The notes beneath the pieces were generated by a model that worked only from the letters and a program-made list of their open reading frames with translations, ran no database searches and had not been told where the DNA came from. Positions 4,068 through 29,899 of a stretch of DNA of 64,000 bases are shown here, piece by piece. The DNA lies in contig JBFWVL010000001.1 in the NCBI GenBank assembly GCA_050246755.1, positions 1,036,611 through 1,100,610 of the forward strand. The letters run 5' to 3'. The number at the start of each line of letters is the position of its first letter. The first letter of the stretch is position 1. This stretch comes from Bacteriovoracia bacterium. Lineage in GTDB: Bacteria; Bdellovibrionota; UBA1018; CAIPTA01. A program made the translations under genes and the position numbers.

Positions 4068-4083
4068 GCTAAGCGCATAAAAA

Positions 4084-4127: not shown

Positions 4128-4136
4128 CCAGAGCAA

Positions 4137-4565
4137 CTAGAAGCGAATATTTGCAATGGAAGACCAAACAGCCGGCGCTCGCTGCGCCATCCCGCTCCGG
4201 CCCTGAAGACTCGTAGAATGCTCGGGTTGAAGAAGCTTGGCTCGATTAGCGAGATCTATCTCTTTCCGTACACGCGCGTTCGCCTCTTCTTCGTCTTCCG
4301 CCCGGCCATCCTGCACGCCGGAATAAGCAGAAATAAGAACACCCACCACAGCGCCGACCGCGGCTCCGTAAAAGATATTCTTCGTATTTTTTCCAGAATC
4401 TTCATAAAAGGGCAGAGTAGAGGCGCCGAGGATAGCGCCCGCCACCGTGGTAACAGTTACGGTGGTGGCGGCTTCGCCCATCGTCACAGCCTTCGCTCCC
4501 GGGGAAAGAACTAAGGCAAGGATCAAATAAATCAGTACCGACGTGGAGGAGCGGTGCAAAATCAC
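4137..4565 (-). CDS. Small membrane protein with a glycine-zipper segment (hypothetical)
   Basis: GAAVGAVVGVLISAYSG GxxxG repeats; charged C-terminal tail. Confidence 0.5.
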   Translation of the reverse strand: MILHRSSTSVLIYLILALVLSPGAKAVTMGEAATTVTVTTVAGAILGASTLPFYEDSGKNTKNIFYGAAVGAVVGVLISAYSGVQDGRAEDEEEANARVRKEIDLANRAKLLQPEHSTSLQGRSGMAQRAPAVWSSIANIRF

Positions 4566-5164: not shown

Positions 5165-5291
5165 AAACCGATCCTCCTACCGAAAAGTATAGCATTTCGC
5201 ACGCTCGGCTCAAGGGTTATGTCATAGAGGGTAAAGCACTGTAAGTTTTCGCTTTTTTCTGCTATTTCCCAAAAGGAAAGACAGGTGCCTT

Positions 5292-17297: not shown

Positions 17298-18422
17298 TTA
17301 TTTCTTATAGAAGTGGGTAATCTGTTCCACTACCCGCTGCGTATGGGCAAGAGGCATTTCAGGATAGATCGGCAGCGATAGCACTTCTTTTTCTAGGGCC
17401 TCGCATACTGGCAAGGAGCAAGGTCCCTTCAAAAAGAACTGAAATGCCTGCTGGCGATGCATTGCGAGTGGATAATAAATTTCTGCCCCCACGCCCTGTT
17501 CGCCCAAAAATGTCTTAAGCTCATCGCGGCGCTGAGCCCGGATCGTAAATTGATTCCACACATGCTTACGATTCGGCCCCATCACCGGCAAGCGTACCGC
17601 TTCCAGCCGCGCGGCCTGAAAGAGCTGCGTATAGGAGGAAGCGATCGCCTCGCGCTTTCTTTCGTATTCCGCGAGGTGGCGCAATTTAATTCTCAATACT
17701 GCCGCCTGAATGGAATCAAGACGGGAATTCACGCCCACCAATTCGTGATAATAGCGCTGCTTCGACCCATGCACGCGAACCATGCGAACCTTTTGGGCAT
17801 CGGTCTCCGTTAAGGCAGAAACGAGACCGGCATCGCCGATCGCACCAAGATTTTTGGTGGGATAAAAGCTAAACGCGCCATAGTCTCCCCAGGCGCCACA
17901 TTGCTTTCCTTTAAAAGACGCGCCAATACTCTGCGCACAGTCTTCGATCACAGTAATTTTCCGCCCGGATTTTTTTATTACGGTGGTGAGCGCCTCCATG
18001 TCCACCATTTGCCCGAAGAGGTGAACCGGGATGACAGCCTTGGTGCGAGGTGTGATTTTTTTTGCGAGATCTTCGAGCGAAATATTGTAGGTATCGTCAC
18101 TATCCACGAACACGGGCGTGGCACCAAGTCGCGCCACGGCGCCGGCGGTTGCGTAGAACGTAAATGATGGAACGAGCACTTCATCGCCCGGGCCGATATT
18201 TTCGCACATGAGAGGAAGCAAGAGAGCGTCGGAGCCGGAAGCGCAGGCAATTGCCCGAGGAATGCCGGTATAGGCCGCAATTTCATCTTCGAGTGCTTTT
18301 ACTTCGGGGCCAAGGATAAAAGCGGAGCTATCCAGCAGCTGGCTAAGGGCATTTAGAATTTCCTCCTTCAACGGCTTATTTTGTGCGCCTACATCGAGCA
18401 GGGGAACCTTAGACGTGCTCAT
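17298..18422 (-). CDS. DegT/DnrJ/EryC1-family PLP sugar aminotransferase
   Basis: SFYPTKNLGAIGDAGLV active-site Lys region; 374 aa. Confidence 0.85.
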   Translation of the reverse strand: MSTSKVPLLDVGAQNKPLKEEILNALSQLLDSSAFILGPEVKALEDEIAAYTGIPRAIACASGSDALLLPLMCENIGPGDEVLVPSFTFYATAGAVARLGATPVFVDSDDTYNISLEDLAKKITPRTKAVIPVHLFGQMVDMEALTTVIKKSGRKITVIEDCAQSIGASFKGKQCGAWGDYGAFSFYPTKNLGAIGDAGLVSALTETDAQKVRMVRVHGSKQRYYHELVGVNSRLDSIQAAVLRIKLRHLAEYERKREAIASSYTQLFQAARLEAVRLPVMGPNRKHVWNQFTIRAQRRDELKTFLGEQGVGAEIYYPLAMHRQQAFQFFLKGPCSLPVCEALEKEVLSLPIYPEMPLAHTQRVVEQITHFYKK

Positions 18423-18426
18423 GGCA

Positions 18427-19509
18427 TTATCCTCGTAAAAAATTTTGGTAGCTTTGAATCTGTTTCTTCGTAAGGGCCGCAGCAGAAGCCGGATCTTTCA
18501 AGAAATCTCGGTACCATTCGGTGGTCCAAGCGGCGGTGGTAGAAAAATCCAGGAAAGGCTTCCAACGCAGAACTTTGGTGGCCTTTTCGCAGTTGAGGCG
18601 CAGCATGCGCATTTCTTTTTTCTGCCCAGCATCTTTCGCCGCCTCAATCTTATGGCTGGCGCCACTCCACTGCTTCTCGAGAGCGCTCACTAGCACCCCT
18701 GCCGGCTGCTCCAGCTCTTCATTTGGCCCAAAGTTAAAGGCTTCTCCATGCACGCCAGCAGGATTTTCCAGCAGCCGCTGACCGAGTAGTAAATATCCAC
18801 CAAGCGGCTCCAGCACGTGCTGCCAGGGGCGCACGTAAGTAGGATTACGCAAAACTACGCTTTGCTTTTTTTCCCACGCACGAATGCAGTCGGGGACTAA
18901 ACGATCCGCAGCCCAGTCTCCGCCGCCAATCACGTTGCCGGCCCGAGCGGTACAGGCGCGAATGCCGCCTTCCACAGTAAAAAAAGAGCGGATATAAGAA
19001 GAGGAAACGATTTCCGCGGCCGCCTTCGAGGCCGAGTAAGGATCATGTCCGCCGAGGTGATCGGATTCGCGGTAACCCTCATCTTGCTCTTTATTTTCAT
19101 AAACCTTATCGGTGGTAATCACAACCACCGCGCGCACGCTGGGAGTCCTGCGCGCGGCCTCCAGCACGTGAGCCGTGCCCATTACGTTCTCAGCAAAAGT
19201 TTCAATCGGTTGCTCATAAGAGGCACGCACCAATGGCTGCGCCGCTAAATGAAACACAATTTCTGGCTTCGTTTCGCTCATCGCCTTAACTACGGCGGGG
19301 AGGTCGCGAATATCGCCGCGCAAATCACGCAGGCGCTTCGCCAAACCGATTGCTTCAAAATGCGACGGCTCGGTGGGGATCTCTTTTGAAAAACCAGTTA
19401 CTTCGGCACCCAACTGATGGAGCCATTCGCCAAGCCAAGAGCCCTTGAAGCCCGTATGACCAGTGAGAAAAATTTTTCGTTTAGAGTAAATATTTCCGAA
19501 GGCGCTCAC
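18427..19509 (-). CDS. rfbG: CDP-glucose 4,6-dehydratase
   Basis: Near-colinear with Salmonella RfbG: FLTGHTGFKGSWL, HLAAQPLVRASYEQPIETF, GGHDPYSASKAAAE. Confidence 0.85.
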   Translation of the reverse strand: MSAFGNIYSKRKIFLTGHTGFKGSWLGEWLHQLGAEVTGFSKEIPTEPSHFEAIGLAKRLRDLRGDIRDLPAVVKAMSETKPEIVFHLAAQPLVRASYEQPIETFAENVMGTAHVLEAARRTPSVRAVVVITTDKVYENKEQDEGYRESDHLGGHDPYSASKAAAEIVSSSYIRSFFTVEGGIRACTARAGNVIGGGDWAADRLVPDCIRAWEKKQSVVLRNPTYVRPWQHVLEPLGGYLLLGQRLLENPAGVHGEAFNFGPNEELEQPAGVLVSALEKQWSGASHKIEAAKDAGQKKEMRMLRLNCEKATKVLRWKPFLDFSTTAAWTTEWYRDFLKDPASAAALTKKQIQSYQNFLRG

Positions 19510-19515
19510 TTGGCC

Positions 19516-20301
19516 CTACCAATTCTTCCAGGGAGCCTTGCCTGTGGCCCAGAGTTCCTCGAGGTGTTCACGGTCACGAATCGTGTCCATGCACTGCCAG
19601 AAACCGTCATGGCGGTAAGCCATCAGCTGATGGTCCTTAGCCAAGCGCTCCATTGGAGAGCGCTCAAGAATTGTTTCATCACCCTCTAGGTATTCGAAAA
19701 CTCCGGGCTCCATCACCATGAAGCCGCCGTTAATCCATCCTTCATCGGCAGGAGCTTTTTCCCGGAATGCATCGATGCGTCCATTGTCCGCAATTTCGAG
19801 CCCGCCAAAGCGAGCCGTGGGACGAACCGCTGTCATGGTCACCAGCTTTCCGTGCTTTTTATGAAAGGCCAGAAGCTCTTTCAAGTTTACGTCGCTCAGG
19901 CCGTCACCATATGTAAATAGAAATGGCCCCTGGGGTTTAAGGCGCGGCTCTAAACGCTTCAAGCGTCCACCAGTCATAGATTCAGGACCGGTATCGATCA
20001 GCTGTACTTTCCAGTTTTCACGATTACTCGATTCGTAAGGAGTGAGCTTGCCGGAGGCAAGGTCGACTTCGAAATCGCTGTTGAGCGCGGAGTAATGTAA
20101 AAAAAAGTTTTTGATATAGTCGCCGAGATAGCCTGTGGCCAGCGTGAAGTGATCGAACCCATGCGATCCGTAGATCTTCATAATATGCCAGAGCATCGGG
20201 TGGCCCCCGATGGTAACCATGGGCTTGGGACGGAGCGATGTTTCTTCGGCTAGGCGCGTGCCTTTTCCGCCGCAAAGGATGACTACTTGCATAGGCTCCA
20301 C
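19516..20301 (-). CDS. rfbF: Glucose-1-phosphate cytidylyltransferase
   Basis: VVILCGGKGTRL...KPMVTIGGHPMLWHIMKIY matches RfbF. Confidence 0.9.
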   Translation of the reverse strand: MEPMQVVILCGGKGTRLAEETSLRPKPMVTIGGHPMLWHIMKIYGSHGFDHFTLATGYLGDYIKNFFLHYSALNSDFEVDLASGKLTPYESSNRENWKVQLIDTGPESMTGGRLKRLEPRLKPQGPFLFTYGDGLSDVNLKELLAFHKKHGKLVTMTAVRPTARFGGLEIADNGRIDAFREKAPADEGWINGGFMVMEPGVFEYLEGDETILERSPMERLAKDHQLMAYRHDGFWQCMDTIRDREHLEELWATGKAPWKNW

Positions 20302-20331
20302 CTTAAATCAGGGGGACAAACCCCACAATAG

Positions 20332-20820
20332 TTGTGTTACAAATGGGGTATGCAAGAAGCGAAAAAGACGGACATATCGGGGGTAATCATTGCCCCCAAG
20401 CGTAAACTCTTCGACGACCGCGGCGGCATCTTTCATATGCTCCGCAACGATGACCCGGAGTTCCAAAAGTTCGGGGAAATCTACTTTTCCAAAGTCCACC
20501 CCGGAGTGATTAAGGCCTGGCACCACCATAGCCGCATGACGCTAAACTACCTCGTAGTGAGCGGCTCTATCCAGTTAGGCCTCTGGGACGGGCGCAAAGA
20601 CTCCCCCACTTACGGCAAGCAGCAAACGATCTACCTCGACGAGAGCAATAGCCAGCTCGTGGTGGTTCCTTTCGGGGTATGGAACGGATTCAAGGGCCTC
20701 GGGACCACGAGCTCCGTAGTGGCCAACTGCGCCACCGAACCCCATGACCCTCTTGAGATCACGCGTAAGCCGTATAATGACCCGAGCTTTGGGTATAGCT
20801 GGGAATTAAAGCACGGTTAG
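20332..20820 (+). CDS. RmlC-like cupin: sugar-nucleotide 3,5-epimerase / 5-epimerase or 3,4-ketoisomerase (AscE/FdtA-like). The true start is probably the ATG at 20350
   Basis: Small cupin of about 155 aa in a sugar pathway context (IYFSKVHPGVIKAWHHH). Confidence 0.6.
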   Translation: MCYKWGMQEAKKTDISGVIIAPKRKLFDDRGGIFHMLRNDDPEFQKFGEIYFSKVHPGVIKAWHHHSRMTLNYLVVSGSIQLGLWDGRKDSPTYGKQQTIYLDESNSQLVVVPFGVWNGFKGLGTTSSVVANCATEPHDPLEITRKPYNDPSFGYSWELKHG

Positions 20821-20835
20821 GAGGAAATTTCCCGC

Positions 20836-22239
20836 TTACCGGGCGCCACTTCCTTCACGCCGAACGGAAATGGCCAGCGTTCTATAAAGTTCTAGTAGAA
20901 ATTGCCCTAGGCACAAAATAGGAAGGCTAAAATATAGCCCCTGGATAGGCACAATGTACCTAAAATCCCAGGGAATAATCAAATTCCCCAACGCCACGGG
21001 AACCAGGAACAAAGCAGTAGCACTACTCCACACGAGCGCGGAAGAACTCTTCTTCCAAGCAAGAAGAAAGAATCCGCACAACCCGAGCAACTGCAGCACC
21101 GTGCGAATCGGAAGACGGGCGCCCCGTGGAAGGTCGGGAGGATAACTCATATACTTACACATGCCCCAAAATTGGCGTAACCCCACCCGGGCCGTGGTCA
21201 ACGGATGCTGAATCATTACCGCCATATTTAAACGGGACAGCTCTGCACCTAATTGGGCGGCGGCGGCGGCGGGAATCACCTCGGCAATACCCCAATTAAC
21301 ATAATTGGCTCTTATTCTTTCATCGCAGAGAAATGGCCTCGCTTCCTGCGGAAATCTATTTTGCGCACAACCGAGGTTCCAAATTTCGGGGCCACGCGAA
21401 TACCAGGCCGCCAAATAACCACTAGTGGAGAAAAACTCCGAAGCACCGTTATGGTTTACGTAATTAATGCTACGAACCGAACCGCAAATAAGTAAACAAC
21501 TCAGCAAAATACCCAATCCGACAATTCGATAGGCTCGCCACGCCGAAAGAATAATTCCGGCCACAGCCAAGCCAATCCACCATTGCACCTTCAGTAAACA
21601 GAGGAAAAGCGCGGAAAATAAAAAAAGTAACCAAGCCAAAGCAAAGCACTTCTTCCTGTTGGTTTCGTTTAAAAAAAAGAGCAAAAATATAAAGCCAATT
21701 ATAATAGGCAAAAAAGCGCGCGATAAGGCCTCCGTGGTGAAGGAGGCCGATGATTCAATCGGCCTTTGAAAAAGATCAAGGGTGACCAGCGCTAAAGAAA
21801 ATAGAAGCGTAGAACGAAAAAAAATGGCTACGCCAAATGCGAACAACACCTCCGCAAATACGCTCAGCCCTACTAAAAATAGTACATAGTTATGCCGCCA
21901 ATGAGCTGGATTTGGCGAAATCGCACGGATGGCCAACATCGCCGTACCGGCGCCGATTCCCCTGAGTGGATAGGCATCCAGAAAAGCGGCATAATTAGGG
22001 GTAGGCGAAACCAAGGTCGGATCAGTTTTTCCGGACCAGAATTTCTGGGCAACATACAGATAGTCTAGATGATCATCGGCTACGATAGGCTCGCGGGTGC
22101 TCTCGAACTGAATACTTTCGTGAAAAAAAGTCTGCGAATAGTTGGACGCGCGGTAAATCACCCAGGCCAGACAAAGAAGGGCGACCATAAGTGCGGCCAT
22201 TAAATTTGCCTTCGTTTTTTTTAGGCGAAGATCAACCAT
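20836..22239 (-). CDS. Polytopic membrane protein, possible Wzy-like polymerase / O-antigen-ligase-family protein
   Basis: 467 aa with about 10-12 TM helices and a large loop; family not verifiable by eye. Confidence 0.35.
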   Translation of the reverse strand: MVDLRLKKTKANLMAALMVALLCLAWVIYRASNYSQTFFHESIQFESTREPIVADDHLDYLYVAQKFWSGKTDPTLVSPTPNYAAFLDAYPLRGIGAGTAMLAIRAISPNPAHWRHNYVLFLVGLSVFAEVLFAFGVAIFFRSTLLFSLALVTLDLFQRPIESSASFTTEALSRAFLPIIIGFIFLLFFLNETNRKKCFALAWLLFLFSALFLCLLKVQWWIGLAVAGIILSAWRAYRIVGLGILLSCLLICGSVRSINYVNHNGASEFFSTSGYLAAWYSRGPEIWNLGCAQNRFPQEARPFLCDERIRANYVNWGIAEVIPAAAAAQLGAELSRLNMAVMIQHPLTTARVGLRQFWGMCKYMSYPPDLPRGARLPIRTVLQLLGLCGFFLLAWKKSSSALVWSSATALFLVPVALGNLIIPWDFRYIVPIQGLYFSLPILCLGQFLLELYRTLAISVRREGSGAR

Positions 22240-22242
22240 TCA

Positions 22243-23574
22243 CTAAAGCGCGCGCACGCAATCCTCAAGCGCTTGCAGCATATACTGGATACGGACGCCA
22301 TCAATACCGGGATGCACCCCCACCCAAAAAGTGCGCTTCATGATTTCATCGGTATTCTTCAATTCGCCCACCACGCGGAAGTCCACATTTTGGTAGGCCG
22401 GTTGGCGCACGAGATTACCCGCGAAAAGTAAGCGCGTGCCCACTTTTCTTTCTTCCAGTGCCGCCACCAGTTTCTCGCGGTTCAAGCCGGGGGCGCAGTG
22501 CACGGGAAATCCAAACCACGAAGGGCGCGTGCCCCTCGTGGGTTCCACGGGAATCAATTTATCCCGCAGTACCGGCGAAGCCTTCACTCCATCGTAGAGC
22601 GCCTTCCAGTTTGTACGGCGCGCTTCCACGAAGCCACGGGCCTTCTTAAGTTGCGAAACACCTAGCGCCGCCTGCATGTCGGTGCCCTTCAAGTTATACC
22701 CGATATTCGAATAGGTATATTTATGGTCGTAACCGTCCGGCAACGTGCCGAGCTGCCAGCCGAAACGCTTGCCGCAGGTATTGTCTTTGCCCGGCTCGCA
22801 CCAGCAATCACGGCCCCAGTCGCGCATGCTTTCAGCCACTTTACGAAGGCGTCCATCCTTAGGAAGCACGGCGCCGCCCTCACCGGTGGTGATATGGTGA
22901 GCAGGATAGAAACTTAGCGTGGACATATCCCCGAAGGAACCCGCCGGCGCCCACCCTTGATCCGACTCGATCTCAGCACCGAGGGCATCGCAGCAGTCTT
23001 CCAAGAGATAAATGCCTTCTTTCGTGCACCACTCGGCGATTTTGTCGGCGCGGTAAGGATTACCAAGCGTGTGAGCAATAAATACCGCCTTAGTTTTTCC
23101 GGGAACGTACGCTGCCTGAATGGATTCGAGCGAAGTGTCGAGGGTATCGAAATTTACGTCCACGAATACGGGGCGCATCCCGGTTTGCACGATCGGATTC
23201 ACGGTGGTGGGAAATCCCGCCGCCACGGTGATCACTTCGTCGCCCGGCTTGAGGCGGGTCTTTTTCATATCGTCCATCATCGGTGCCGAGAGGGCCGACA
23301 TGGCCACCAAGTTCGCTGAGGATCCGCTATTCACGAAGAGCGCTTTTACTTTGCGGTTCATCCACTTCGGCAGCTCCGCCTCAAATTCCGCGCCGTAGCG
23401 GCCGGTGGTGAGCCACAAATCTAAAGAGGCATCGAGAAGCGAGACCATGTCTTCCTCGTCGATCACTTTTCCGCTCGGTGGAATATAAGATTGCCCCGGC
23501 ACAAAGGGCTTTACTTGGTGGCTCGCCTGAAAAAATTTTCGGGCCTCGGCAAAAACATTTTCCCGCGTGCTCAT
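22243..23574 (-). CDS. rfbH: CDP-6-deoxy-D-xylo-4-hexulose-3-dehydrase (E1; RfbH/DdhC), PMP-dependent DegT-family enzyme
   Basis: Colinear with Salmonella RfbH: LKPGDEVITVAAGFPTTVNP, EDCCDALGA, SFYPAHHITTGEGGAV (His in place of Lys), RDWGRDCWCEPGKDNTCGKRFGWQLGTLPDGYDHKYTYS. Confidence 0.85.
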   Translation of the reverse strand: MSTRENVFAEARKFFQASHQVKPFVPGQSYIPPSGKVIDEEDMVSLLDASLDLWLTTGRYGAEFEAELPKWMNRKVKALFVNSGSSANLVAMSALSAPMMDDMKKTRLKPGDEVITVAAGFPTTVNPIVQTGMRPVFVDVNFDTLDTSLESIQAAYVPGKTKAVFIAHTLGNPYRADKIAEWCTKEGIYLLEDCCDALGAEIESDQGWAPAGSFGDMSTLSFYPAHHITTGEGGAVLPKDGRLRKVAESMRDWGRDCWCEPGKDNTCGKRFGWQLGTLPDGYDHKYTYSNIGYNLKGTDMQAALGVSQLKKARGFVEARRTNWKALYDGVKASPVLRDKLIPVEPTRGTRPSWFGFPVHCAPGLNREKLVAALEERKVGTRLLFAGNLVRQPAYQNVDFRVVGELKNTDEIMKRTFWVGVHPGIDGVRIQYMLQALEDCVRAL

Positions 23575-25289
23575 GAATGCTCCTTAGTCACTAAAAAATC
23601 ACCAATTGCTAAAACATCGAACTCGGTACGCAAAAAACAGGCGATCGCGTGGTCCGGCGTGCAAACGATCGGCTCGTTTTCGTTAAAAGACGTATTGAGT
23701 AAAACTGGAACGCCGCTGATCTTCTCAAATTCGCTGATTAAATTCCAATAACGAAGGTTAGATTTCTTGCTTACGGTTTGAACCCGGGCACTGCCATCTA
23801 TATGCGTTACCGCCGGGATCTTTCCGACCATACCCGGTTTAACCCGGCCCATCAAAATCATATAGGGGGAATATTGGTTTTTAGGGAGGGAAAAATACTG
23901 CTCTGCGCGCTCTTCCAGCACGGAGGGGGCAAAAGGCCGAAATGCTTCGCGCCGCTTCACGAGGGCATTGAGCTTCTCCTTCATGTCGGGCCGGGTGGGA
24001 TCCACCGCAATAGAACGATTCCCGAGAGCCCTTGGCCCCGACTCCATGCGCCCCTGAAACCAACCCACAATCTTCCCGTCGGCGATATGGCGCGCGGTTT
24101 CCGCCTCAATGCGGTCCGATTTTCTATAGGAAAGATTATGACGCTTTAGCTCGGCTTCGATTTGTTCATTAGAAAACTCCGGCCCCAGATACACACCATT
24201 GAAAACCTCCTTGCGAGGTTGGTTTAGAGTTTGGTGGTAGTGAAAAAGGGCGGCGCCGTAGGAGGCGCCGGCATCGTTGGCGATCGGTTGAAAGAAAAAC
24301 TCCTTAAATGGAGTCTTCGCCACTATCTCGCTATTCATCAAACAATTAAGCGCCACTCCGCCAGTGAGGCAAAGGTTGGGGCTATTTGTGAGCTTGAATA
24401 AATGATTCGCTAAATTCACCCCCGCCTTCTCCACCAAACGCTGGAGCGCAAAAGCAATATCGTAGTGATGCTGGGTGAGCGGGGAACTTTTTTCGCGGGC
24501 CGGGCCGAACTTCTTCAGAAATTTTTCACTTAGCCAACGAGCTTGGCCGTGGGTATGAAAAGAGAAATAATCGAGATTGAGCTCATAGAGCCCATCGCTG
24601 TCAAAGCGTATAAGATCGGCAAAATCCCGCTCGTAGGTGTCTTTTCCATAGGCCGAAAGGCCCATTACCCTCCACTCATCGAAGAATGGAGCAAAACCAA
24701 GGTAATCCGTTACGGCGGCATAGAAATGACCGAGCGAATGAGGTACCGAAACTTCCCTCAGCTTCTCGATCTTATTTTCTTTTCCCCTAGCCAGCAGAGT
24801 GGAGGTGCTTTCGCCCCTGCCGTCTAGAGTCAGAATCGCTGCCTCCCTAAAGGGAGAAATAAAAAAAGCGCTGGCCGCGTGCGCGAGGTGGTGCTCCACA
24901 AAAATGACTCGCGGAGCCCGCGCGACCTTAAAAGTCTCTTGAAGGGCTCGGCCGATATTGCGCATGCTTAGGATGCGAGAAAAAAAGCTCATCTCTTTGG
25001 ATCCCGAAGGAGCGCGAAGAAGATTTAGCGAAGCGGGAAAATAGCGCAGAAAATGAAAGAAATTACCCTTCAACTCTTTGAGAGGTTGCCAGTAGAAAGC
25101 GACCGCGGATACTTCTTCCATGGTGATCCCCGCTTGATCGAGGCAAAAACGAACGGCTTGAGCAGGAAACTTCGCGGTATGTTTTTCCCGGTTAAATCGC
25201 TCTTCTTCCGCGTGGGCGCAAAGAACACCGCTCTTCAGCAATGCCGAGGAGGATTCATGGCCATAGCTGCTGATTCCAAGAATATACAT
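23571..25289 (-). CDS. NodU/CmcH-family carbamoyltransferase
   Basis: MYILGISSYGHESSSALLKSG..., 572 aa, typical family architecture. Confidence 0.85.
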   Translation of the reverse strand: MYILGISSYGHESSSALLKSGVLCAHAEEERFNREKHTAKFPAQAVRFCLDQAGITMEEVSAVAFYWQPLKELKGNFFHFLRYFPASLNLLRAPSGSKEMSFFSRILSMRNIGRALQETFKVARAPRVIFVEHHLAHAASAFFISPFREAAILTLDGRGESTSTLLARGKENKIEKLREVSVPHSLGHFYAAVTDYLGFAPFFDEWRVMGLSAYGKDTYERDFADLIRFDSDGLYELNLDYFSFHTHGQARWLSEKFLKKFGPAREKSSPLTQHHYDIAFALQRLVEKAGVNLANHLFKLTNSPNLCLTGGVALNCLMNSEIVAKTPFKEFFFQPIANDAGASYGAALFHYHQTLNQPRKEVFNGVYLGPEFSNEQIEAELKRHNLSYRKSDRIEAETARHIADGKIVGWFQGRMESGPRALGNRSIAVDPTRPDMKEKLNALVKRREAFRPFAPSVLEERAEQYFSLPKNQYSPYMILMGRVKPGMVGKIPAVTHIDGSARVQTVSKKSNLRYWNLISEFEKISGVPVLLNTSFNENEPIVCTPDHAIACFLRTEFDVLAIGDFLVTKEHS

Positions 25290-25291: not shown

Positions 25292-26716
25292 GTGATTAGA
25301 GAGGGCCAATTTACTGGATGGCATAGGCAATATCCAATTAAAATCTGGCCACTAAATGACTCCACATTATACATTTTAACCATGCTCGAAAATTCCCACG
25401 ATAAGCCCGCCGGACCGATCAGTGAGCTCATCGCGGAAGAAGTCACCACCCATAGCCGCTACTTTGACGCAACTATCCAAGTTTATCCCCTCGCCCATGA
25501 AGAGGGGACCATTTTGAGAAAATTGCGTTCTCCCCAAAAAATGGTCGTTCGCCACCTTCAAGAGGCGCATTCCGCCGACACCCAGGCTCGTCGCCTTTTT
25601 TTTCTCAACGGTAATCTTAACCATCACCTAGACGTGGAGGGATTACTTGGCGAACTAAAGCGGGTGATGCACCGTGGGGACCGGGTGACCGCGGTGGTTT
25701 ACAATAGCTACCTCCGTGCGCTCTACCATCTCGCAAACCTTTTTGGATGGAGAAAGGGTGACTTGCCTACCACCTATTTTACGCAAGCTTCGCTGGAAAA
25801 TATCGCTAAGCTGGCGGGATTCGAAATCACCCGCTCTCGACCCGTTGGCTTCGTGCCCTTCCGCCTGTTGGGACTCGGTAAAGCTTTAAATATCCTACTC
25901 CAGGGACTTCCGGGAATCCGTTGGTTTGGCCTTGCCCAAGTAGTAGTTCTTCGCCCACTACTTCCATCTACGAATAAGCTGAGCGTTAGCATTCTTATCC
26001 CGGCAAGGAACGAGCGCGGAAATATAGAGAGCGCCATTTCCCGCCTTCCCTCCCTCGGTGGAGCCAAGCGAGAAGTAATCTTCATAGAAGGGCACTCCAC
26101 TGATGGAACCTGGGAAGAGATCCTCCGCGTACAAAAAAAGTATGCGGAGTCTCTTAGGATAGTTGCCCTACAGCAAGAGGGCACAGGCAAAGCGGATGCC
26201 GTGCGCCTTGGGCTCGCCAAGGCCACCGGCGATTTAGTCACCATTCTCGACGCCGATCTCACCATGCCCCCCGAGCTGCTGTCGCGATTTTATGAGGCGT
26301 ATGAGCTTGGCCTCGCAGATTTCGTAAACGGCAGCCGTCTTCTCTACCCCATGGAAGGCGAAGCGATGCGGTTTCTAAATTGGCTGGGAAACATATTTTT
26401 CGCCAAAGCGCTCAGCTTCGTGCTGGAGACCCAGCTCGGAGACTCTCTCTGCGGAACCAAGCTAATGGCCCGCAGAGACTACGAGCGATTTTGCCAGTGG
26501 AGAAAAGACTTCGGCGTATTTGATCCCTTCGGGGATTTTGAGCTGCTTTTTCCCGCCGCGGTTTTGGGCCTTGGAAGCATCGATATTCCCGTGCGGTACC
26601 GAGCGCGCACCTACGGATTTACCAATATTCAGCGATTCCGCGATGGCTGGGTACTTCTCAGAATGACCCTACTAGCCTTGACGCGCATACGGTTCGGCCT
26701 AGGTTCTACACGGTAG
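25292..26716 (+). CDS. Two-domain protein: N-terminal ~230 aa domain of unknown function fused to a C-terminal GT2 glycosyltransferase
   Basis: C-terminal half VSILIPARNERGNIESAI...ILDADLTMPPE (GT2 DxD). Confidence 0.7.
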   Translation: MIREGQFTGWHRQYPIKIWPLNDSTLYILTMLENSHDKPAGPISELIAEEVTTHSRYFDATIQVYPLAHEEGTILRKLRSPQKMVVRHLQEAHSADTQARRLFFLNGNLNHHLDVEGLLGELKRVMHRGDRVTAVVYNSYLRALYHLANLFGWRKGDLPTTYFTQASLENIAKLAGFEITRSRPVGFVPFRLLGLGKALNILLQGLPGIRWFGLAQVVVLRPLLPSTNKLSVSILIPARNERGNIESAISRLPSLGGAKREVIFIEGHSTDGTWEEILRVQKKYAESLRIVALQQEGTGKADAVRLGLAKATGDLVTILDADLTMPPELLSRFYEAYELGLADFVNGSRLLYPMEGEAMRFLNWLGNIFFAKALSFVLETQLGDSLCGTKLMARRDYERFCQWRKDFGVFDPFGDFELLFPAAVLGLGSIDIPVRYRARTYGFTNIQRFRDGWVLLRMTLLALTRIRFGLGSTR

Positions 26717-26768: not shown

Positions 26769-27752
26769 ATGACAATATTCTCCTCTATTCCCTATTTTTT
26801 CGCTGCCTTAGCGCTTCCGCTTGCCGCAGATGCGGCCATTCAATGTAGCCGCAGCGATACACGGGAATGTGGGACGGATTCGCTTTATGCTTCAAAAATT
26901 TTTCGTGAATCCATGAAGACCCTTACCGGCAAAAGCTTTGAGCCCGAACAGATCAAAAAAGTACGCTTCCACGATGGCGGCTGGGCATCCTATAAGCTTG
27001 GGCAAAATGAAATCGACTTTGCTAAGCGCAACAAGCTTCCCGCCAGCTACTTCAAAAAAACTCAATGGTACTTGATTGAGGTTTCTGGCGAAGGGGACCT
27101 ACTAAAAACATTCCAAGTGGATCTTGATTTTGGGGCCTACTCCGAGGGCGCAACCCCCGCCGATTATAAAATAGCCACCGTAGAAAATGCCCGCGTAACC
27201 GAATTGCCACCATACAAATTGGAAGAAGAGAAACAACGGACCACGGCCAAGAAAATGCCGGAGAACGGCTTCGTATGCGAAAATGAAGATCTCGGGTTGG
27301 TGCTTAGCGGAGAGCCCCTAAAAAATTCCCTTTCCTTCGGACAGACCATCGACGCCGCCCTCGCCAAAGCCAATGACGGAAAATCGGAAACCGACTTGGG
27401 AAACTATAAAGTAATACTGAGCGATTTCGGCATTAAAAAACCACCCACCCTTCCCCCAGCGCGGGAAGAGCTGGAAGTTTCAATGCAGCTAGATCTCGAC
27501 TACAAAAAAGGCACTCCCGACCACTACGACCTTGGATTCGTAGCTCGCAGCCCTACCATTTCCTTCTGGCGCGCTCTTTCCGGATACAATAATATTCAAA
27601 AATACTGCACTAGCGCGGCCAGCAAAGGCACCGAAGACCAAAAAGAAATTTGCGAAAGCGATCCGCACGAAGCGCTGGTTATTCAAACCCGTGATAAAAA
27701 ATGGGAAAAGGTGGTTTGCCACTTTTACGAAAAGTCGGCTTATTCACGCTAG
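26769..27752 (+). CDS. Secreted hypothetical protein
   Basis: Signal peptide MTIFSSIPYFFAALALPLAADAA. Confidence 0.45.
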   Translation: MTIFSSIPYFFAALALPLAADAAIQCSRSDTRECGTDSLYASKIFRESMKTLTGKSFEPEQIKKVRFHDGGWASYKLGQNEIDFAKRNKLPASYFKKTQWYLIEVSGEGDLLKTFQVDLDFGAYSEGATPADYKIATVENARVTELPPYKLEEEKQRTTAKKMPENGFVCENEDLGLVLSGEPLKNSLSFGQTIDAALAKANDGKSETDLGNYKVILSDFGIKKPPTLPPAREELEVSMQLDLDYKKGTPDHYDLGFVARSPTISFWRALSGYNNIQKYCTSAASKGTEDQKEICESDPHEALVIQTRDKKWEKVVCHFYEKSAYSR

Positions 27753-28622
27753 TTAAATGTCGCGAAACGGTTTGGCCTGCAAAATGAGCAGACTGCCCAT
27801 GAGCGGTCGCAACTTAACCTCGACGCGGTGTAATAATTGCGCCAGCGAACCAGATACGGCGTTCACGAAGGGCGCGACCACAAAAATGGAATTGATTCCG
27901 GTGGCTTCAAATCCGCAGGTCTCGAGAAACTTCACCAAAGAGTTCGGCGTAAATTTACTGATATGCTGCTCGTGGTATTTAACGGGACTGGCCCGTTCGA
28001 GCAACCATTCGATCATCGGCCAAAAGCTGCGATAGTTGGGCGTGGTGAGCACGAAAACCCCTTCCGGCTTTAGCACCCGGCGCGCTTCCGCCAGAATTTT
28101 CGCCGCCAAAAAAGGATGGATATGCTCGATAACCTCGATGCAGGTTACGGCATCGAAGGAGGCGTCTGGATAGGGTAACTTTTCACCGTCGAGCAGCTGA
28201 AATTTAATATTCCCCGGAAATTTCGCGGCGATGTTTTTAGCCGCAAAATCTATTTGCGGAGAAGCAATATCCACTCCGGTGGCCTGAACTCCGGGCACTG
28301 TCTCCCCCAAAACAGCCAGGAAAGAACCTGGTCCGCAGCCGAAATCCAAAACCGTTTTGGCGCCGCTGCTCCTTACCAGTTTGGCCACTTCCAGGAATTT
28401 TTCCCGATGCCAAAATCTTTGTATTGCGTGGCCCTTGAGCATTACTTCGTAATAATAACCTGCGGGTATTTCACTATAATTAAATACGCTGTTCTTGGTG
28501 CGATGAATGGGAAGCACTAATGGCACCTCAGAACTTGATAGCTTTTGGGAAAAAGGCCCGGCTGAATACTTTCCGGGTTCAGACAGTCTGCTGGTAGGGC
28601 CGTACGTCCTGGCAATGGACAC
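27753..28622 (-). CDS. Class I SAM-dependent methyltransferase. The start may be the internal Met (MLKGH...), which would remove the 106-nt overlap with the upstream gene
   Basis: Motif I VLDFGCGPGSFLAVLGE. Confidence 0.75.
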   Translation of the reverse strand: MSIARTYGPTSRLSEPGKYSAGPFSQKLSSSEVPLVLPIHRTKNSVFNYSEIPAGYYYEVMLKGHAIQRFWHREKFLEVAKLVRSSGAKTVLDFGCGPGSFLAVLGETVPGVQATGVDIASPQIDFAAKNIAAKFPGNIKFQLLDGEKLPYPDASFDAVTCIEVIEHIHPFLAAKILAEARRVLKPEGVFVLTTPNYRSFWPMIEWLLERASPVKYHEQHISKFTPNSLVKFLETCGFEATGINSIFVVAPFVNAVSGSLAQLLHRVEVKLRPLMGSLLILQAKPFRDI

Positions 28623-29899
28623 ATCGCTTGGTCGTAAAGTAGTACCTTACCCCTTGCGGACATACTCGGCATTTGTTCCTTTACGGTAATTGCGCTGCCG
28701 GATTCGTGAAAAAAGCGATCCATAGAAAGCGATCCCTCATTGCAAGGCATCCAAAGCTCGGTAGCGCCGGCACGCTCCAGGCCAGCGGCATTAGCTACGA
28801 TTGCCCCGATATCATGCAGACGTCCAAAATTAATATAGGAACGGTAGGAACTCACCATTACCGCAAAGATTGCCAGCAACGAAAGCCAAATCCCGGCAGG
28901 AATTTTTTTCAAATACCAGAAACCAAGCTGAACGATTAAAGCGGCATACAGAGGAGTAATCACCGACTGTACATAGCCCTGAATGCCCCAAGGTAAAAAC
29001 AATACGAGGAAGGCACTTACTCCGGCCAACGGTATGAGCAGCTCCGGACTTTCCCAAACTGTACTCCAATTCGCGGCGATCCAAACAAGGGCGGCAAAAA
29101 TTGGAACTAAGAAAAGTGCGCCATGCACCGAAAGTAAATTAGGTATGATTTTCCCGGCGCTATATTGGCGCGTATACCCGCCACGGCTGGATATATAAGC
29201 AAAGGATAAAACCATTCCTATTCCCAGGGCCATCAATAAAAAGGATTCCACCCACGCTCGGGACTCCCCTTTTTTAAGTCTAGGCGCCGCCGCCGCCAGA
29301 TAGGCCATGAAAGCCACGCAGTAATGGATAGCGAAAGAAGCTTTTACACAAGCTCCGAAACAAATCCAAGCCAGTGCCACGATCCAAAAACTCCATGTTT
29401 TCCAACGCTCACGGTTCCAGCAGTGCCAGGTAAGGCCCGCCCCCGCGAGTAGAATCATTTTTTCCTGAAGGCTCGGGTGCTGCAACAAATCATGGCCATA
29501 GAAAAAAGCGGCCGAACCGAGAAGAATAGGAACTATGGAAATTTTTAGAATACGGGCCAATACCGCGGAGTAAAGCCAGATCACCGAAAGTACAATTAGA
29601 GCATTCCAAGCAAAAGTGACCCAGGATGCAGTGGCCATGCCTGGCGCATAAATTAGATAAACCATTGGTGGATAAGTTGGGCGAAACATCCCCCACCCAA
29701 GGTCCCCCACACCATAAATCCAAGCAAAACGGAAAATGCCTGCGTCGCGCATTCTTGGCACCATATAAAATAAATTGGTCACGTCGTCCATCAACCCCCA
29801 ATGAGGGCGCAGGATGAAAATGGACAGAAGTATCACGACCGGTATTAGCCAAACACAGATTCGCGGAATATATTTTTCTAAGAAAATCGTGAGCTTCAA
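28517..29899 (-). CDS. Polytopic membrane protein with a C-terminal soluble domain (GT-C-like architecture), hypothetical
   Basis: About 11 TM helices followed by about 100 aa soluble tail. Confidence 0.45.
   Translation of the reverse strand: MKLTIFLEKYIPRICVWLIPVVILLSIFILRPHWGLMDDVTNLFYMVPRMRDAGIFRFAWIYGVGDLGWGMFRPTYPPMVYLIYAPGMATASWVTFAWNALIVLSVIWLYSAVLARILKISIVPILLGSAAFFYGHDLLQHPSLQEKMILLAGAGLTWHCWNRERWKTWSFWIVALAWICFGACVKASFAIHYCVAFMAYLAAAAPRLKKGESRAWVESFLLMALGIGMVLSFAYISSRGGYTRQYSAGKIIPNLLSVHGALFLVPIFAALVWIAANWSTVWESPELLIPLAGVSAFLVLFLPWGIQGYVQSVITPLYAALIVQLGFWYLKKIPAGIWLSLLAIFAVMVSSYRSYINFGRLHDIGAIVANAAGLERAGATELWMPCNEGSLSMDRFFHESGSAITVKEQMPSMSARGKVLLYDQAMCPLPGRTALPADCLNPESIQPGLFPKSYQVLRCH

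What the first reader, a model, noticed from the sequence alone, without database searches (positions are those of the whole stretch)
17298..23574. CDP-dideoxyhexose pathway with E1 (RfbH) but no E3 reductase, plus an extra aminotransferase and cupin
RfbF (19516-20301), RfbG (18427-19509) and RfbH/E1 (22243-23574) are recognisable along their whole length against remembered Salmonella sequences. E1 needs the flavo-iron-sulfur reductase E3 (RfbI/DdhD) to complete C3 deoxygenation. No ORF anywhere in the 64 kb window looks like a ferredoxin-NADP-reductase-type protein. Instead the block carries a second DegT aminotransferase (17298-18422) and a small RmlC-like cupin (20332-20820). This suggests either an E3 encoded elsewhere or an unusual product, for example a CDP-linked amino-dideoxy or amino-trideoxy hexose.
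Basis: partly seen in the sequence, partly recalled or inferred. Interest (0 to 1): 0.6.

Follow-up and report, generated by a model that had tools for sequence, protein, structure and literature searches.

The report
E3-less CDP amino-deoxysugar gene module
A predatory-bacterium (Bdellovibrionota) surface-sugar gene cluster carries the classic CDP-glucose 3-deoxygenation enzyme E1 without its usual reductase partner E3. That absence is normal for this branch of E1 enzymes, and an aminotransferase sits where the final reductase normally is, so the likely product is an undescribed CDP-linked 4-amino-3,4,6-trideoxy sugar.

Summary
RfbF, RfbG and RfbH/E1 all pass curated equivalog cut-offs. E1 keeps the catalytic His and all four [2Fe-2S] cysteines. 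Neither a Pfam scan of all major window ORFs nor a validated Salmonella RfbI (E3) probe finds any E3-like gene in the 64 kb.

The missing E3 is not an anomaly. None of 80 E1 loci from many phyla (1.3 Mb) has an E3 or any recurrent redox partner nearby, yet all 74 full-length E1 homologues keep the cluster ligands. SpnQ is a published precedent for an E1-type enzyme that uses general ferredoxin or flavodoxin reductases.

The distinctive feature is a module conserved in one Bdellovibrionota clade: E1, RfbF, RfbG, an RmlC-family cupin and a DegT aminotransferase, with no 4-ketoreductase. All six aminotransferase orthologues examined at 66% identity or more are linked to these genes. Other phyla pair the same cupin with an RmlD-like reductase. 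The likely product is CDP-4-amino-3,4,6-trideoxy-L-hexose, here with a carbamoyltransferase, a polyprenyl-phosphate-type GT2 and a GT-C-like membrane protein.

The weak point is the aminotransferase. Its closest characterised relatives act at C-3, and more distant orthologues occur without E1. I rate it a new variant of a known kind, of moderate interest.

The parts
19516..20301 (-). RfbF, glucose-1-phosphate cytidylyltransferase (makes CDP-glucose). The start is probably 9 nt downstream of the listed GTG, as in the independent gene call (258 aa).
   Evidence: TIGR02623 equivalog, 336 bits against a cut-off of 300. 74-75% identical orthologues sit in related modules.
18427..19509 (-). RfbG, CDP-glucose 4,6-dehydratase (makes CDP-4-keto-6-deoxy-D-glucose).
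   Evidence: TIGR02622 equivalog, 471 bits against a cut-off of 278. It lies 6 nt after rfbF and 4 nt before the aminotransferase.
22243..23574 (-). RfbH/E1, a PMP- and [2Fe-2S]-dependent CDP-4-keto-6-deoxyglucose 3-dehydrase.
   Evidence: NF011936, 612 bits against 423. Yersinia E1 3BCX at E = 4e-140 over residues 12-438. His226/His227 and Cys195/257/259/267 are invariant in 74 of 74 homologues.
20332..20820 (+). Short RmlC-family cupin, probably a CDP-4-keto-(3,)6-deoxyhexose epimerase. The true start is probably the ATG at 20350 (156 aa).
   Evidence: PF00908, 53 bits. Best solved relative is the uncharacterised 3EJK (E = 2e-30). It keeps RmlC His63 but has lost Tyr133, Lys73 and Asp170. 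Elsewhere it is paired with an RmlD-like SDR and it is replaced by a canonical RmlC in L091.
17298..18422 (-). DegT/DesV-like PLP aminotransferase. Its proposed role is C-4 amination of the E1/cupin product.
   Evidence: PF01041, E = 6e-107. Lys190 lies in SFYPTKNLGA. It is operonic with rfbF-rfbG. Orthologues at 66% identity or more are linked to E1/CDP genes in 6 of 6 contexts.
20836..22239 (-). 467-aa polytopic membrane protein, probably a GT-C-type glycosyltransferase. It starts 3 nt after the E1 stop.
   Evidence: No Pfam or NCBIfam hit. Only 10 relatives among 1.84 billion representatives. AF2 model pLDDT 77.7, pTM 0.81. The top Foldseek PDB hits are all GT-C enzymes (PglB, STT3, AglB, DPY19, ALG9, EmbB), but with E = 0.03-0.1. 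A conserved EPxxxDDD motif follows TM1.
23571..25289 (-). NodU/CmcH/TobZ-family carbamoyltransferase, translationally coupled to E1 by a 4-nt overlap.
   Evidence: PF02543 and PF16861. Nearest structures are O-carbamoyltransferases 7XB6, GdmN, NovN and TobZ (E about 1e-94 to 1e-100). A 62% orthologue lies between RfbG and GT2-AT in L091.
25292..26716 (+). GT2 glycosyltransferase of the polyprenyl-phosphate type with an unassigned N-terminal domain of about 230 aa. It is divergent from the carbamoyltransferase. The start is probably near 25382.
   Evidence: PF00535 over residues 233-397. Nearest structures are DPMS 5MLZ, ArnC and GtrB. A 456-aa counterpart lies next to CarbT-AT in the P0082 context.
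28517..29899 (-). 460-aa polytopic membrane protein. This is the conserved membrane partner of the module in relatives.
   Evidence: Orthologous to L091_424 (367 bits) and L084_456 (210 bits), which lie inside those modules. The fold is untested, because the single-sequence AF2 model was unusable (pLDDT 43).

Best explanation
The region is a surface-glycan module of a Bdellovibrionota (Bacteriovoracia) bacterium. It most likely makes a CDP-activated 4-amino-3,4,6-trideoxy-L-hexose and passes it to a lipid carrier.

Shown by sequence:
- RfbF makes CDP-glucose.
- RfbG makes CDP-4-keto-6-deoxy-D-glucose.
- E1 is a bona fide PMP/[2Fe-2S] 3-dehydrase, so it makes CDP-4-keto-3,6-dideoxy-D-glucose once it receives two electrons.

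Inferred:
- The electrons come from a non-dedicated cellular ferredoxin or flavodoxin reductase system, as shown for SpnQ. No dedicated E3 is linked to E1 here or in any related locus.
- The RmlC-family cupin epimerises the 4-keto sugar at C-5, giving the L series.
- The DegT aminotransferase converts the C-4 keto group to an amine. It takes the place that an RmlD/AscF/RfbS-type 4-reductase holds in ascarylose, paratose and abequose pathways.

More speculative:
- In this strain the carbamoyltransferase decorates the sugar, most simply at the 2-OH.
- The DPMS/ArnC-like GT2 loads the sugar onto polyprenyl phosphate.
- A GT-C-type membrane enzyme (memb467 and/or the conserved memb460) transfers it to LPS or another envelope acceptor.
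For: - Equivalog-level identification of RfbF, RfbG and E1. The E1 catalytic His and four Cys ligands are intact.
- No E3 in the window by Pfam, by tblastn with a validated RfbI probe (probe sensitivity shown), or by motif.
- 0 of 80 related E1 loci have an E3 or a recurrent redox partner, while 74 of 74 keep the cluster ligands.
- SpnQ precedent for an E3-independent electron supply (PMC8987622).
- A 3-deoxygenase followed by a 4-aminotransferase is an established logic in dTDP pathways (PMC8944477).
- rfbF-rfbG-AT are spaced by 6 and 4 nt. CarbT-E1-memb467 are spaced by -4 and 3 nt.
- AT orthologues at 66-100% identity are linked to E1, a cupin and RfbG (and RfbF in five of the six) in 6 of 6 contexts. 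In L085 the six genes are contiguous.
- In other phyla the short cupin is followed by an RmlD-like SDR. No orthologue of that SDR, of RfbS or of an AscF-like SDR exists in the window or in the Bdellovibrionota loci.
- L090 has RfbF, RfbG, cupin and SDR without E1, so the cupin is a general CDP-sugar epimerase partner.
- L091 replaces the short cupin with a canonical RmlC that keeps all four catalytic residues.
- The other keto-sugar pathway in the window (41-47 kb) has its own DegT.
- The TviB/TviC-like pair makes no free keto sugar.
- GT2_474 resembles polyprenyl-phosphate GTs, and memb467 gives GT-C fold matches.
Against: - The aminotransferase's closest characterised relatives are C-3 aminotransferases (DesV 293 bits, QdtB 268, WbpE 251, WlaRG 239). 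The best C-4 enzymes score lower (perosamine synthase 184, ArnB about 148).
- Its nearest plasmid-borne relatives sit with WbpB-like oxidoreductases or FdtA/QdtA cupins.
- AT orthologues at 61%, 56% and 51% identity occur with no RfbF, RfbG, E1 or cupin nearby. The gene is always the last one before the Bat operon, so part of the linkage could be positional.
- The cupin lacks the RmlC acid Tyr133 and has an HxH motif. Some homologues also carry weak FdtA Pfam hits.
- All solved relatives of the carbamoyltransferase are O-carbamoyltransferases, so an Arn-like N-acylation role is unsupported.
- The GT-C assignment rests on Foldseek E-values of only 0.03-0.1.
- No biochemical data exist, and no paper in the searched library describes a CDP-4-amino sugar.
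Confidence: 0.5

Rival explanations
1. The aminotransferase does not belong to the CDP branch. It is a constant terminal gene of the glycan locus that aminates another nucleotide sugar (UDP- or dTDP-linked, possibly at C-3). The E1 branch ends as an ordinary 3,6-dideoxyhexose (ascarylose-, paratose- or abequose-like) made with an unlinked reductase.
For: - AT orthologues at 61%, 56% and 51% identity occur without any CDP/E1 genes. At 61% and 56% they still abut BatD and sit with the carbamoyltransferase and a GT2.
- The nearest characterised relatives are UDP- and dTDP-sugar C-3 aminotransferases.
- The window has a WbpB-like Gfo/Idh/MocA oxidoreductase and a TviB-like dehydrogenase.
Against: - The WbpB-like pathway has its own adjacent DegT (44201-45415).
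- No 4-reductase orthologue (RmlD-like, RfbS, AscF-like) is present in the window or in four Bdellovibrionota loci. That would leave the E1 product as a dead-end keto sugar.
- 6 of 6 AT orthologues at 66% identity or more are linked to E1.
- rfbF-rfbG-AT are tightly spaced here, and RfbF-RfbG-CarbT-GT2-AT are co-directional in L091.
- L089 independently places an AT of this family beside RfbG, the cupin and RfbF.
Confidence: 0.22
2. The cupin is a 3,4-ketoisomerase and the aminotransferase acts at C-3, giving a CDP-3-amino-3,6-dideoxyhexose. A more exotic version has E1 dehydrating at C-4 of a 3-keto sugar, giving a desosamine-like 3-amino-3,4,6-trideoxyhexose. Otherwise E1 would serve a separate branch.
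For: - The AT is most similar to DesV, QdtB, WbpE and WlaRG.
- One close plasmid relative lies next to an FdtA/QdtA cupin.
- The short cupin has an HxH motif and lacks RmlC Tyr133 and Lys73.
- A few homologues carry precomputed PF05523 (FdtA) hits.
Against: - The cupin scores on PF00908, not PF05523.
- In other phyla it pairs with an RmlD-like 4-reductase.
- In L091 the same module uses a canonical RmlC with all four catalytic residues.
- E1 is 52-55% identical to classical E1s with an unchanged active site.
- The compact L085 module would then carry E1 with nothing to process its product.
Confidence: 0.1
3. A dedicated E3 (RfbI/DdhD/AscD orthologue) exists elsewhere in the genome and serves this E1, so the pathway is mechanistically the classical E1/E3 pair with unlinked genes. 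This concerns only the electron donor and is compatible with the amino-sugar product.
For: - Only 64 kb of a contig of at least 1.9 Mb was examined.
- E3-type reductases are widespread, with 236 plasmid records at E <= 1e-25.
- E3 is linked to rfbH in Salmonella and in Sphingomonas hengshuiensis.
Against: - 0 of 80 related E1 loci across many phyla have E3 within reach. If these genomes have an E3, it is systematically unlinked, which is unlike a dedicated partner.
- SpnQ shows that general reductase pairs suffice.
Confidence: 0.3

Closest known systems
Ascarylose / 3,6-dideoxyhexose pathway of Yersinia pseudotuberculosis and Salmonella (RfbF/DdhA, RfbG/DdhB, RfbH/DdhC = E1, RfbI/DdhD = E3, then AscE/AscF or RfbS/RfbJ)
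   Same: The first three enzymes are the same at equivalog level. E1 has an identical active-site His and the same [2Fe-2S] ligands. An RmlC-family cupin occupies the epimerase slot, as AscE does.
   Different: There is no linked E3. There is no terminal 4-ketoreductase, and a PLP aminotransferase stands in its place. The cupin belongs to a short subfamily that lacks the RmlC Tyr, Lys and Asp. A carbamoyltransferase, a polyprenyl-phosphate-type GT2 and a GT-C-like protein are attached.
Forosamine/ossamine logic in actinomycetes (SpnQ/UrdQ/IdnS12 3-dehydrase followed by SpnR/VinF/IdnS13 4-aminotransferase)
   Same: An E1-type Fe-S 3-dehydrase works without a dedicated E3 and is followed by transamination of the remaining 4-keto group. 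This is the closest functional analogy.
   Different: Those pathways use dTDP-2,6-dideoxy substrates (they need a 2,3-dehydratase and a 3-ketoreductase, both absent here), give tetradeoxy D-sugars, and decorate secondary metabolites. This module is CDP-based, keeps the 2-OH, includes an epimerase, and sits in a cell-envelope glycan locus.
Arn (Ara4N) lipid A modification pathway (ArnB aminotransferase, ArnA formyltransferase, ArnC, ArnT); Francisella FlmF/FlmK from my own recollection, title and abstract only seen
   Same: The architecture is similar: a nucleotide-4-keto sugar, a DegT aminotransferase, an acyl-type modifying enzyme, a polyprenyl-phosphate GT2 and a GT-C transferase.
   Different: The sugar nucleotide is CDP rather than UDP and the sugar differs. 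A carbamoyltransferase replaces the formyltransferase, and its relatives are O- rather than N-acting. No deacylase is present. The acceptor is unknown. The GT-C and polyprenyl-phosphate GT assignments rest only on similarity.

Membership tests
E1 (CDP-6-deoxy-L-threo-D-glycero-4-hexulose 3-dehydrase, RfbH/DdhC/AscC) | Full-length similarity to characterised E1, above the curated family cut-off | tested here: met
   NF011936, 612 bits against 423. 3BCX at E = 4e-140 over residues 12-438.
E1 (CDP-6-deoxy-L-threo-D-glycero-4-hexulose 3-dehydrase, RfbH/DdhC/AscC) | His replaces the PLP-binding Lys of aminotransferases (His220 in Yersinia) | tested here: met
   The motif is SFYPAHHITTGEGG. The aligned residue is the one changed to Lys in the 3BB8 mutant. 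It is invariant in 74 of 74 homologues.
E1 (CDP-6-deoxy-L-threo-D-glycero-4-hexulose 3-dehydrase, RfbH/DdhC/AscC) | Four Cys ligands of the unusual [2Fe-2S] motif C-X57-C-X1-C-X7-C (motif recalled from Agnihotri et al. 2004, which is cited in PMC8987622) | tested here: met
   Cys195, 257, 259 and 267 are present and invariant in 74 of 74 homologues. The first spacer is 61 rather than 57 residues.
E1 (CDP-6-deoxy-L-threo-D-glycero-4-hexulose 3-dehydrase, RfbH/DdhC/AscC) | 3-dehydrase activity on CDP-4-keto-6-deoxyglucose | not testable with these tools
   Requires an enzyme assay.
Classical E1/E3 3,6-dideoxyhexose (ddh/asc/rfb) gene set | An E3 flavo-iron-sulfur reductase (RfbI/DdhD/AscD) encoded with E1 | tested here: not met
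   No Fer2, FAD_binding_6 or NAD_binding_1 domain in the window. tblastn with RfbI finds nothing. The probe itself works. The rest of the genome was not examined.
Classical E1/E3 3,6-dideoxyhexose (ddh/asc/rfb) gene set | A terminal NDP-4-keto-3,6-dideoxyhexose 4-reductase (RfbS, RfbJ or AscF type) | tested here: not met
   BLAST with Salmonella RfbS, the Qipengyuania AscF-like SDR and the RmlD-like SDRs of L016 and L039 gives only generic SDR similarity in the window and in L084-L086.
SpnQ/SpnR-type 3-deoxygenation plus 4-amination | An E1-type Fe-S 3-dehydrase with no dedicated reductase gene in the cluster | tested here: met
   The precedent is described in PMC8987622.
SpnQ/SpnR-type 3-deoxygenation plus 4-amination | A Lys-containing sugar aminotransferase genetically coupled to the dehydrase | tested here: met
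   Lys190 is present. Linkage holds in 6 of 6 orthologue contexts at 66% identity or more.
SpnQ/SpnR-type 3-deoxygenation plus 4-amination | The aminotransferase acts at C-4 of the 3-deoxy-4-keto sugar | not testable with these tools
   This is inferred only from the absence of any other keto position or reductase. Sequence affinity points to C-3 enzymes instead. An attempted comparison with a Streptomyces E1-adjacent AT was uninformative.
SpnQ/SpnR-type 3-deoxygenation plus 4-amination | A dTDP-2,6-dideoxy substrate (2,3-dehydratase and 3-ketoreductase genes present) | tested here: not met
   No such genes are in the window. The nucleotide is CDP, as shown by RfbF and RfbG.
RmlC (dTDP-4-dehydrorhamnose 3,5-epimerase) | The catalytic set His63, Lys73, Tyr133 and Asp170, plus the curated family score | tested here: not met
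   Only His63 is kept. Tyr133 is Asn, Lys73 is Tyr, and the C-terminal Asp region is absent. TIGR01221 scores 43 bits against a cut-off of 156. The protein is a member of Pfam PF00908 only (53 bits against 27).
GT-C glycosyltransferases (for the 467-aa membrane protein) | The GT-C transmembrane fold with an acidic motif in the first extracytoplasmic loop | tested here: inconclusive
   The AF2 model has pTM 0.81. The top Foldseek hits are all GT-C, but with E = 0.03-0.1 and query-normalised TM of 0.24-0.47. A conserved EPxxxDDD motif follows TM1.

The most novel reading that the evidence does not exclude
A clade of predatory Bdellovibrionota makes a previously undescribed nucleotide sugar, CDP-4-amino-3,4,6-trideoxy-L-hexose ('4-amino-ascarylose'), carbamoylated in some strains. 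E1 obtains its electrons from housekeeping redox proteins. The sugar is delivered through a polyprenyl-phosphate carrier and a rare GT-C enzyme onto lipid A, LPS core or another envelope acceptor, as a cationic or neutral surface modification analogous to Ara4N.
Probability: 0.2. Interest if true: 0.7.

Novelty: new variant of a known kind. Interest (0 to 1): 0.45.

Why it matters
The work corrects a textbook expectation. E1 needing a clustered E3 is an enteric (and Sphingomonas) peculiarity. In 80 of 80 loci from Bdellovibrionota, Acidobacteriota, Chloroflexota, Planctomycetota, Cyanobacteria, Bacillota and others, E1 keeps its Fe-S ligands but has no linked reductase. That extends the SpnQ observation from one natural-product enzyme to much of the family.

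If the proposed product is real, it would be the first CDP-linked 4-amino-trideoxy sugar and a new building block of Gram-negative envelopes. It would also give a compact enzyme set (RfbF, RfbG, E1, cupin, AT) for chemoenzymatic synthesis of amino-deoxy sugars. Surface chemistry in predatory bacteria is relevant to self-protection and prey recognition.

Tried and rejected
- My first regex screens for E3 motifs had no positive control. I replaced them with a real RfbI probe taken from an unannotated gap in a Salmonella plasmid record.
- The marginal tblastn hits of RfbI in Acidobacteriota loci turned out to be GT2s, a ThDP enzyme and an SDR.
- A 4Fe-4S ORF abutting E1 in L074 is NuoI, a housekeeping protein.
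- I considered the TviB-like dehydrogenase plus SDR pair as an ArnA-like source of a UDP-4-keto sugar for the AT. I rejected this because the SDR scores as a GalE/TviC-type epimerase, not a decarboxylase.
- I considered the AT as the WbpE partner of the WbpB-like oxidoreductase at 40989. This is unlikely because a paralogous DegT lies within 2.3 kb downstream of that gene, in the same cluster.
- I tried to show that E1-adjacent aminotransferases in Streptomyces clusters are DesV-like. One cluster has no AT, and the other has a frameshifted AT of a different subfamily.
- Primary SpnQ, SpnR and E1 papers were not in the library.
- Literature searches for CDP-amino sugars found nothing.
- The promoter and terminator scan was at background level.

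Full report
**1. Observation.**
- NCBIfam equivalog models identify 19516-20301 as glucose-1-phosphate cytidylyltransferase (336 bits, cut-off 300), 18427-19509 as CDP-glucose 4,6-dehydratase (471 bits, cut-off 278) and 22243-23574 as RfbH (612 bits, cut-off 423).
- The RfbH protein aligns over residues 12-438 with crystallised Yersinia pseudotuberculosis E1 (3BCX, E = 4e-140).
The PLP-site residue is His (SFYPAHHITTGEGG), aligned with the His that is mutated to Lys in PDB 3BB8. The four cysteines of the E1 [2Fe-2S] motif are present as C195-X61-C257-X1-C259-X7-C267.
- 17298-18422 is a genuine DegT-family aminotransferase with the Schiff-base lysine (SFYPTK190NLGA).
- 20332-20820 is a PF00908 cupin (53 bits).
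- Three corrections apply. The cupin is on the opposite strand. A 467-aa membrane-protein gene (20836-22239) lies inside the interval and was not mentioned. A carbamoyltransferase gene (23571-25289) overlaps the E1 start codon by 4 nt.

**2. Is E3 really absent?**
- I scanned every substantial ORF of the window against Pfam and NCBIfam. No Fer2, FAD_binding_6 or NAD_binding_1 domain appears.
- As a positive control I recovered Salmonella RfbI (324 aa, with CKAGDCGIC...C, RSYS and GGTGFAP) from an unannotated gap between rfbC and rfbF in a Salmonella plasmid record.
- tblastn with RfbI finds itself at 674 bits and finds nothing in the window even at E <= 10.
- The probe is sensitive. In the plasmid collection it detects E3-type reductases at 34-39% identity with E = 1e-44 to 1e-69, including one 2 kb from rfbH in Sphingomonas hengshuiensis.
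- A six-frame motif scan finds no ferredoxin, flavodoxin, Rieske or rubredoxin candidate in the window.
- The 327-aa ORF with no Pfam hit next to the GT2 has a signal peptide and is a secreted protein, not a reductase.

**3. Is the absence unusual?** No.
- The window comes from a Bdellovibrionota bacterium. The exact aminotransferase protein is on record from an NCBI MAG named 'Bacteriovoracia bacterium' on a 1.9-Mb contig. The closest E1 relative, at 80% identity, is from an uncultured Bdellovibrionales MAG.
- I fetched the 80 genome loci whose E1 is most similar (50-80% identity). They come from Bdellovibrionota, Acidobacteriota, Chloroflexota, Planctomycetota, Cyanobacteria, Bacillota, Bacteroidota and others, total 1.33 Mb, and 42 have both 10-kb flanks.
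- RfbI finds no true homologue in any of them. The marginal hits are GT2s, a ThDP enzyme and an SDR.
- No Fe-S or flavodoxin ORF recurs near E1. The one Fe-S ORF that abuts E1, in L074, is NuoI.
- Yet in 74 of 74 full-length E1 homologues the catalytic His pair and the four ligand cysteines are invariant, while the non-ligand Cys positions vary freely.
- These enzymes therefore still need electrons and get them from something unlinked.
- The published precedent is SpnQ, an E1-type [2Fe-2S] 3-dehydrase with no dedicated E3. It works with ferredoxin/ferredoxin reductase or flavodoxin/flavodoxin reductase pairs (review PMC8987622).
- Whether a dedicated E3 lies elsewhere in this genome could not be tested with the tools available.

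**4. What is distinctive?**
The aminotransferase, carbamoyltransferase and 467-aa membrane protein have no counterpart in the 80 general E1 loci.
- The aminotransferase has about 85 relatives at 58% identity or more among the 120 best hits listed; those that carry a source's own name are labelled Bdellovibrionota, Oligoflexia or Bdellovibrionales.
- I examined the genomic context of nine relatives. In all six with 66% identity or more, the AT lies within 10 kb of E1, RfbG and a cupin. These are the window (L001), L084 at 69%, L085 at 67%, L086 at 73%, L091 at 69% and the P0061 context at 66%. RfbF is present in five of the six; no NTP_transferase gene was called in L086.
- In L085 the six genes E1, cupin, RfbF, RfbG, GT2 and AT are contiguous. 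In L091, RfbF-RfbG-CarbT-GT2-AT-DUF5989 form one co-directional run, with E1 (76% identical) and a cupin just upstream.
- Matching contig lengths between the AT and cupin hit lists suggest co-residence on at least 15 contigs.
- By contrast, AT orthologues at 61%, 56% and 51% identity have no CDP/E1 genes nearby. The first two still abut the Bat operon and sit with a carbamoyltransferase and GT2s.

**5. What happens to the 4-keto group?**
- In other phyla the same short cupin (51-56% identical) is followed by a conserved RmlD-like SDR of about 295 aa (L016, L033, L039, L044). The Qipengyuania plasmid has rfbF-rfbG-rfbH followed by an RmlC-like gene and an oxidoreductase. These are ascarylose-type layouts of epimerase plus 4-reductase.
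- BLAST with those SDRs and with Salmonella RfbS finds no orthologue in the window or in L084-L086.
- The only enzyme in the conserved Bdellovibrionota module able to process a keto group is the aminotransferase.
- Competing keto-sugar sources in the window are accounted for. The dehydrogenase plus SDR pair at 29926-32246 is TviB/TviC-like (uronic acid synthesis and epimerisation). The WbpB-like, formyltransferase, WecB and SDR module at 41-48 kb has its own DegT (44201-45415, 42% identical to the AT).
- L089 independently places an AT of the same family (41% identical) beside RfbG, the cupin and RfbF, together with a His-type (ColD-like) 3-dehydratase.

**6. The cupin.**
- It belongs to a short subfamily of about 150 aa whose best solved relative is an uncharacterised structural-genomics protein (3EJK, E = 2e-30). 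True RmlCs score only about 1e-7.
- It keeps RmlC His63. It has Asn for Tyr133 and Tyr for Lys73, has no Asp170 region, and has an HxH motif. It fails the RmlC equivalog cut-off.
- Three observations favour an epimerase over a 3,4-ketoisomerase. It pairs with an RmlD-like 4-reductase elsewhere. In L090 it occurs with RfbF, RfbG, an SDR and a GT2 but without E1, like a CDP-specific RmlC. In L091 its place in an otherwise orthologous module is taken by a canonical 183-aa RmlC that keeps all four catalytic residues.
- If the step is epimerisation, the keto group stays at C-4, and C-4 is the only position the AT can aminate.

**7. The weak link.**
- By sequence, the AT is closest to C-3 aminotransferases: DesV 293 bits, QdtB 268, WbpE 251 and WlaRG 239, against perosamine synthase 184 and ArnB about 148.
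- Its nearest plasmid-borne relatives (about 44% identical) sit in WbpB/E/D-like or FdtA/QdtA contexts.
- A 3-deoxygenase followed by a 4-aminotransferase is an established logic in dTDP pathways (SpnQ/UrdQ/IdnS12, then SpnR/VinF/IdnS13; PMC8944477). I could not obtain those sequences to test whether they also fall in the DesV-like group, and a Streptomyces proxy was uninformative.
- Regiochemistry is therefore inferred from pathway logic, not from sequence.

**8. Downstream genes.**
- The carbamoyltransferase is of the TobZ/NovN/GdmN type, and all of its solved relatives are O-carbamoyltransferases. It is present in the window and L091 and in the two E1-less loci, but absent from L084-L086 and the P0061 context. 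It is therefore an optional decoration.
- GT2_474 is most similar to the polyprenyl-phosphate glycosyltransferases DPMS, ArnC and GtrB.
- The 467-aa membrane protein has one near-identical homologue in the 5.8-billion-protein index and ten relatives among 1.84 billion representatives.
- An AF2 model built on those relatives (pLDDT 77.7, pTM 0.81) retrieves only GT-C enzymes at the top of a Foldseek PDB search. The E-values are weak (0.03-0.1) and the TM scores are 0.24-0.47. A conserved EPxxxDDD motif follows TM1.
- The membrane protein that is actually conserved with the module in relatives is orthologous to the window's 28517-29899 gene. Its fold could not be tested.
- Together these genes suggest transfer through a lipid carrier, as in the Arn pathway. 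This part is speculative.

**9. Verdict.**
- The missing E3 is real but ordinary for this E1 lineage, and a published precedent explains it.
- The interesting content is the conserved replacement of the terminal reductase by an aminotransferase in a Bdellovibrionota clade. This predicts a CDP-4-amino-3,4,6-trideoxy-L-hexose, for which I found no description (the library is limited).
- I rate it a new variant of a known kind, with moderate interest (0.45) and 0.5 confidence in the proposed pathway.

Noticed in passing
window 40989-49702: A second amino-sugar module on the + strand. It holds a Gfo/Idh/MocA (WbpB-like) oxidoreductase, a formyltransferase-like protein, a polysaccharide deacetylase (weak ArnD similarity), a DegT (44201-45415, 42% identical to the AT of the finding), a WecB-type UDP-GlcNAc 2-epimerase (45307-46467, 333 bits), a LegB/ArnA-C-like SDR, a small polyprenyl-phosphate-type GT2 and a 498-aa membrane protein with no family hit. 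It looks like a separate pathway that puts an N-acylated amino sugar on a lipid carrier.
   Followed up: partly
window 9550-17297: A complete MoxR/DUF58/VWA/BatD 'aerotolerance' (Bat) operon directly abuts the glycan locus. The BatD stop and the AT stop are adjacent with 0 nt between them. This junction (AT, then BatD) is conserved in every Bdellovibrionota relative examined, whatever the sugar genes upstream, so the glycan locus is a variable island anchored at a fixed site.
   Followed up: partly
window 20836-22239; 28517-29899; 32262-34703; 38871-40883; 48206-49702: The window holds an unusual number of large polytopic membrane proteins with little or no family assignment (467, 460, 813 [weak YfhO], 670 and 498 aa), interleaved with polyprenyl-phosphate-type GT2s. 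This suggests several GT2 + GT-C pairs that decorate the envelope with single sugars.
   Followed up: partly
window 26769-27752: A 327-aa protein with a signal peptide and several Cys residues, and no Pfam hit, sits between GT2_474 and a methyltransferase. It is conserved in the independent Logan contig (L001). Its function is unknown.
   Followed up: no
L091 11127-11291; L087 2018-2599; P0082 context: Small DUF5989 (and SxtJ) proteins accompany the carbamoyltransferase and AT in relatives. These families are otherwise known from saxitoxin-type carbamoyltransferase neighbourhoods. The window has no room for one, because the AT abuts BatD.
   Followed up: no
L084 (= L002 genome) 1-5200: In the closest relative, E1 is separated from the cupin, RfbF, RfbG and AT by about 8 kb of apparently mobile or defence-type genes (AbiEi_4, DUF4423, AAA_14/DUF4143) plus a NUDIX gene next to the cupin. 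This suggests recent rearrangement of the module.
   Followed up: no
L089 16587-17795: A 402-aa His-type DegT (SFFFSHHITTIEGG) without the E1 CxC cysteine motif, so ColD-like and free of Fe-S, occurs in a locus with CDP-glucose genes, the short cupin and an AT of the same family. This may be a CDP pathway that uses the reductase-independent ColD mechanism.
   Followed up: partly
L082 6109-7083 (NZ_CP022016.1, Salmonella serovar India 'plasmid'): rfbI (E3) is intact in the DNA but missing from the distributed gene table of this record. The 473-kb 'plasmid' carries a whole chromosomal-type rfb/colanic acid region, so it may be a misassigned chromosomal segment.
   Followed up: partly
window 54683-63807: The far end of the glycan locus carries four class-I methyltransferases, a TylF-type sugar O-methyltransferase (57919-58707), a second polysaccharide deacetylase, a FemAB/GNAT-like protein (62794-63807), and 453-aa and 638-aa proteins with no family hit. 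This points to a heavily methylated and acylated glycan.
   Followed up: no
window 43602-44312 (+): A 236-aa TTG-start ORF overlaps both the deacetylase and the DegT genes. It was not scanned against any family library and is probably spurious.
   Followed up: no
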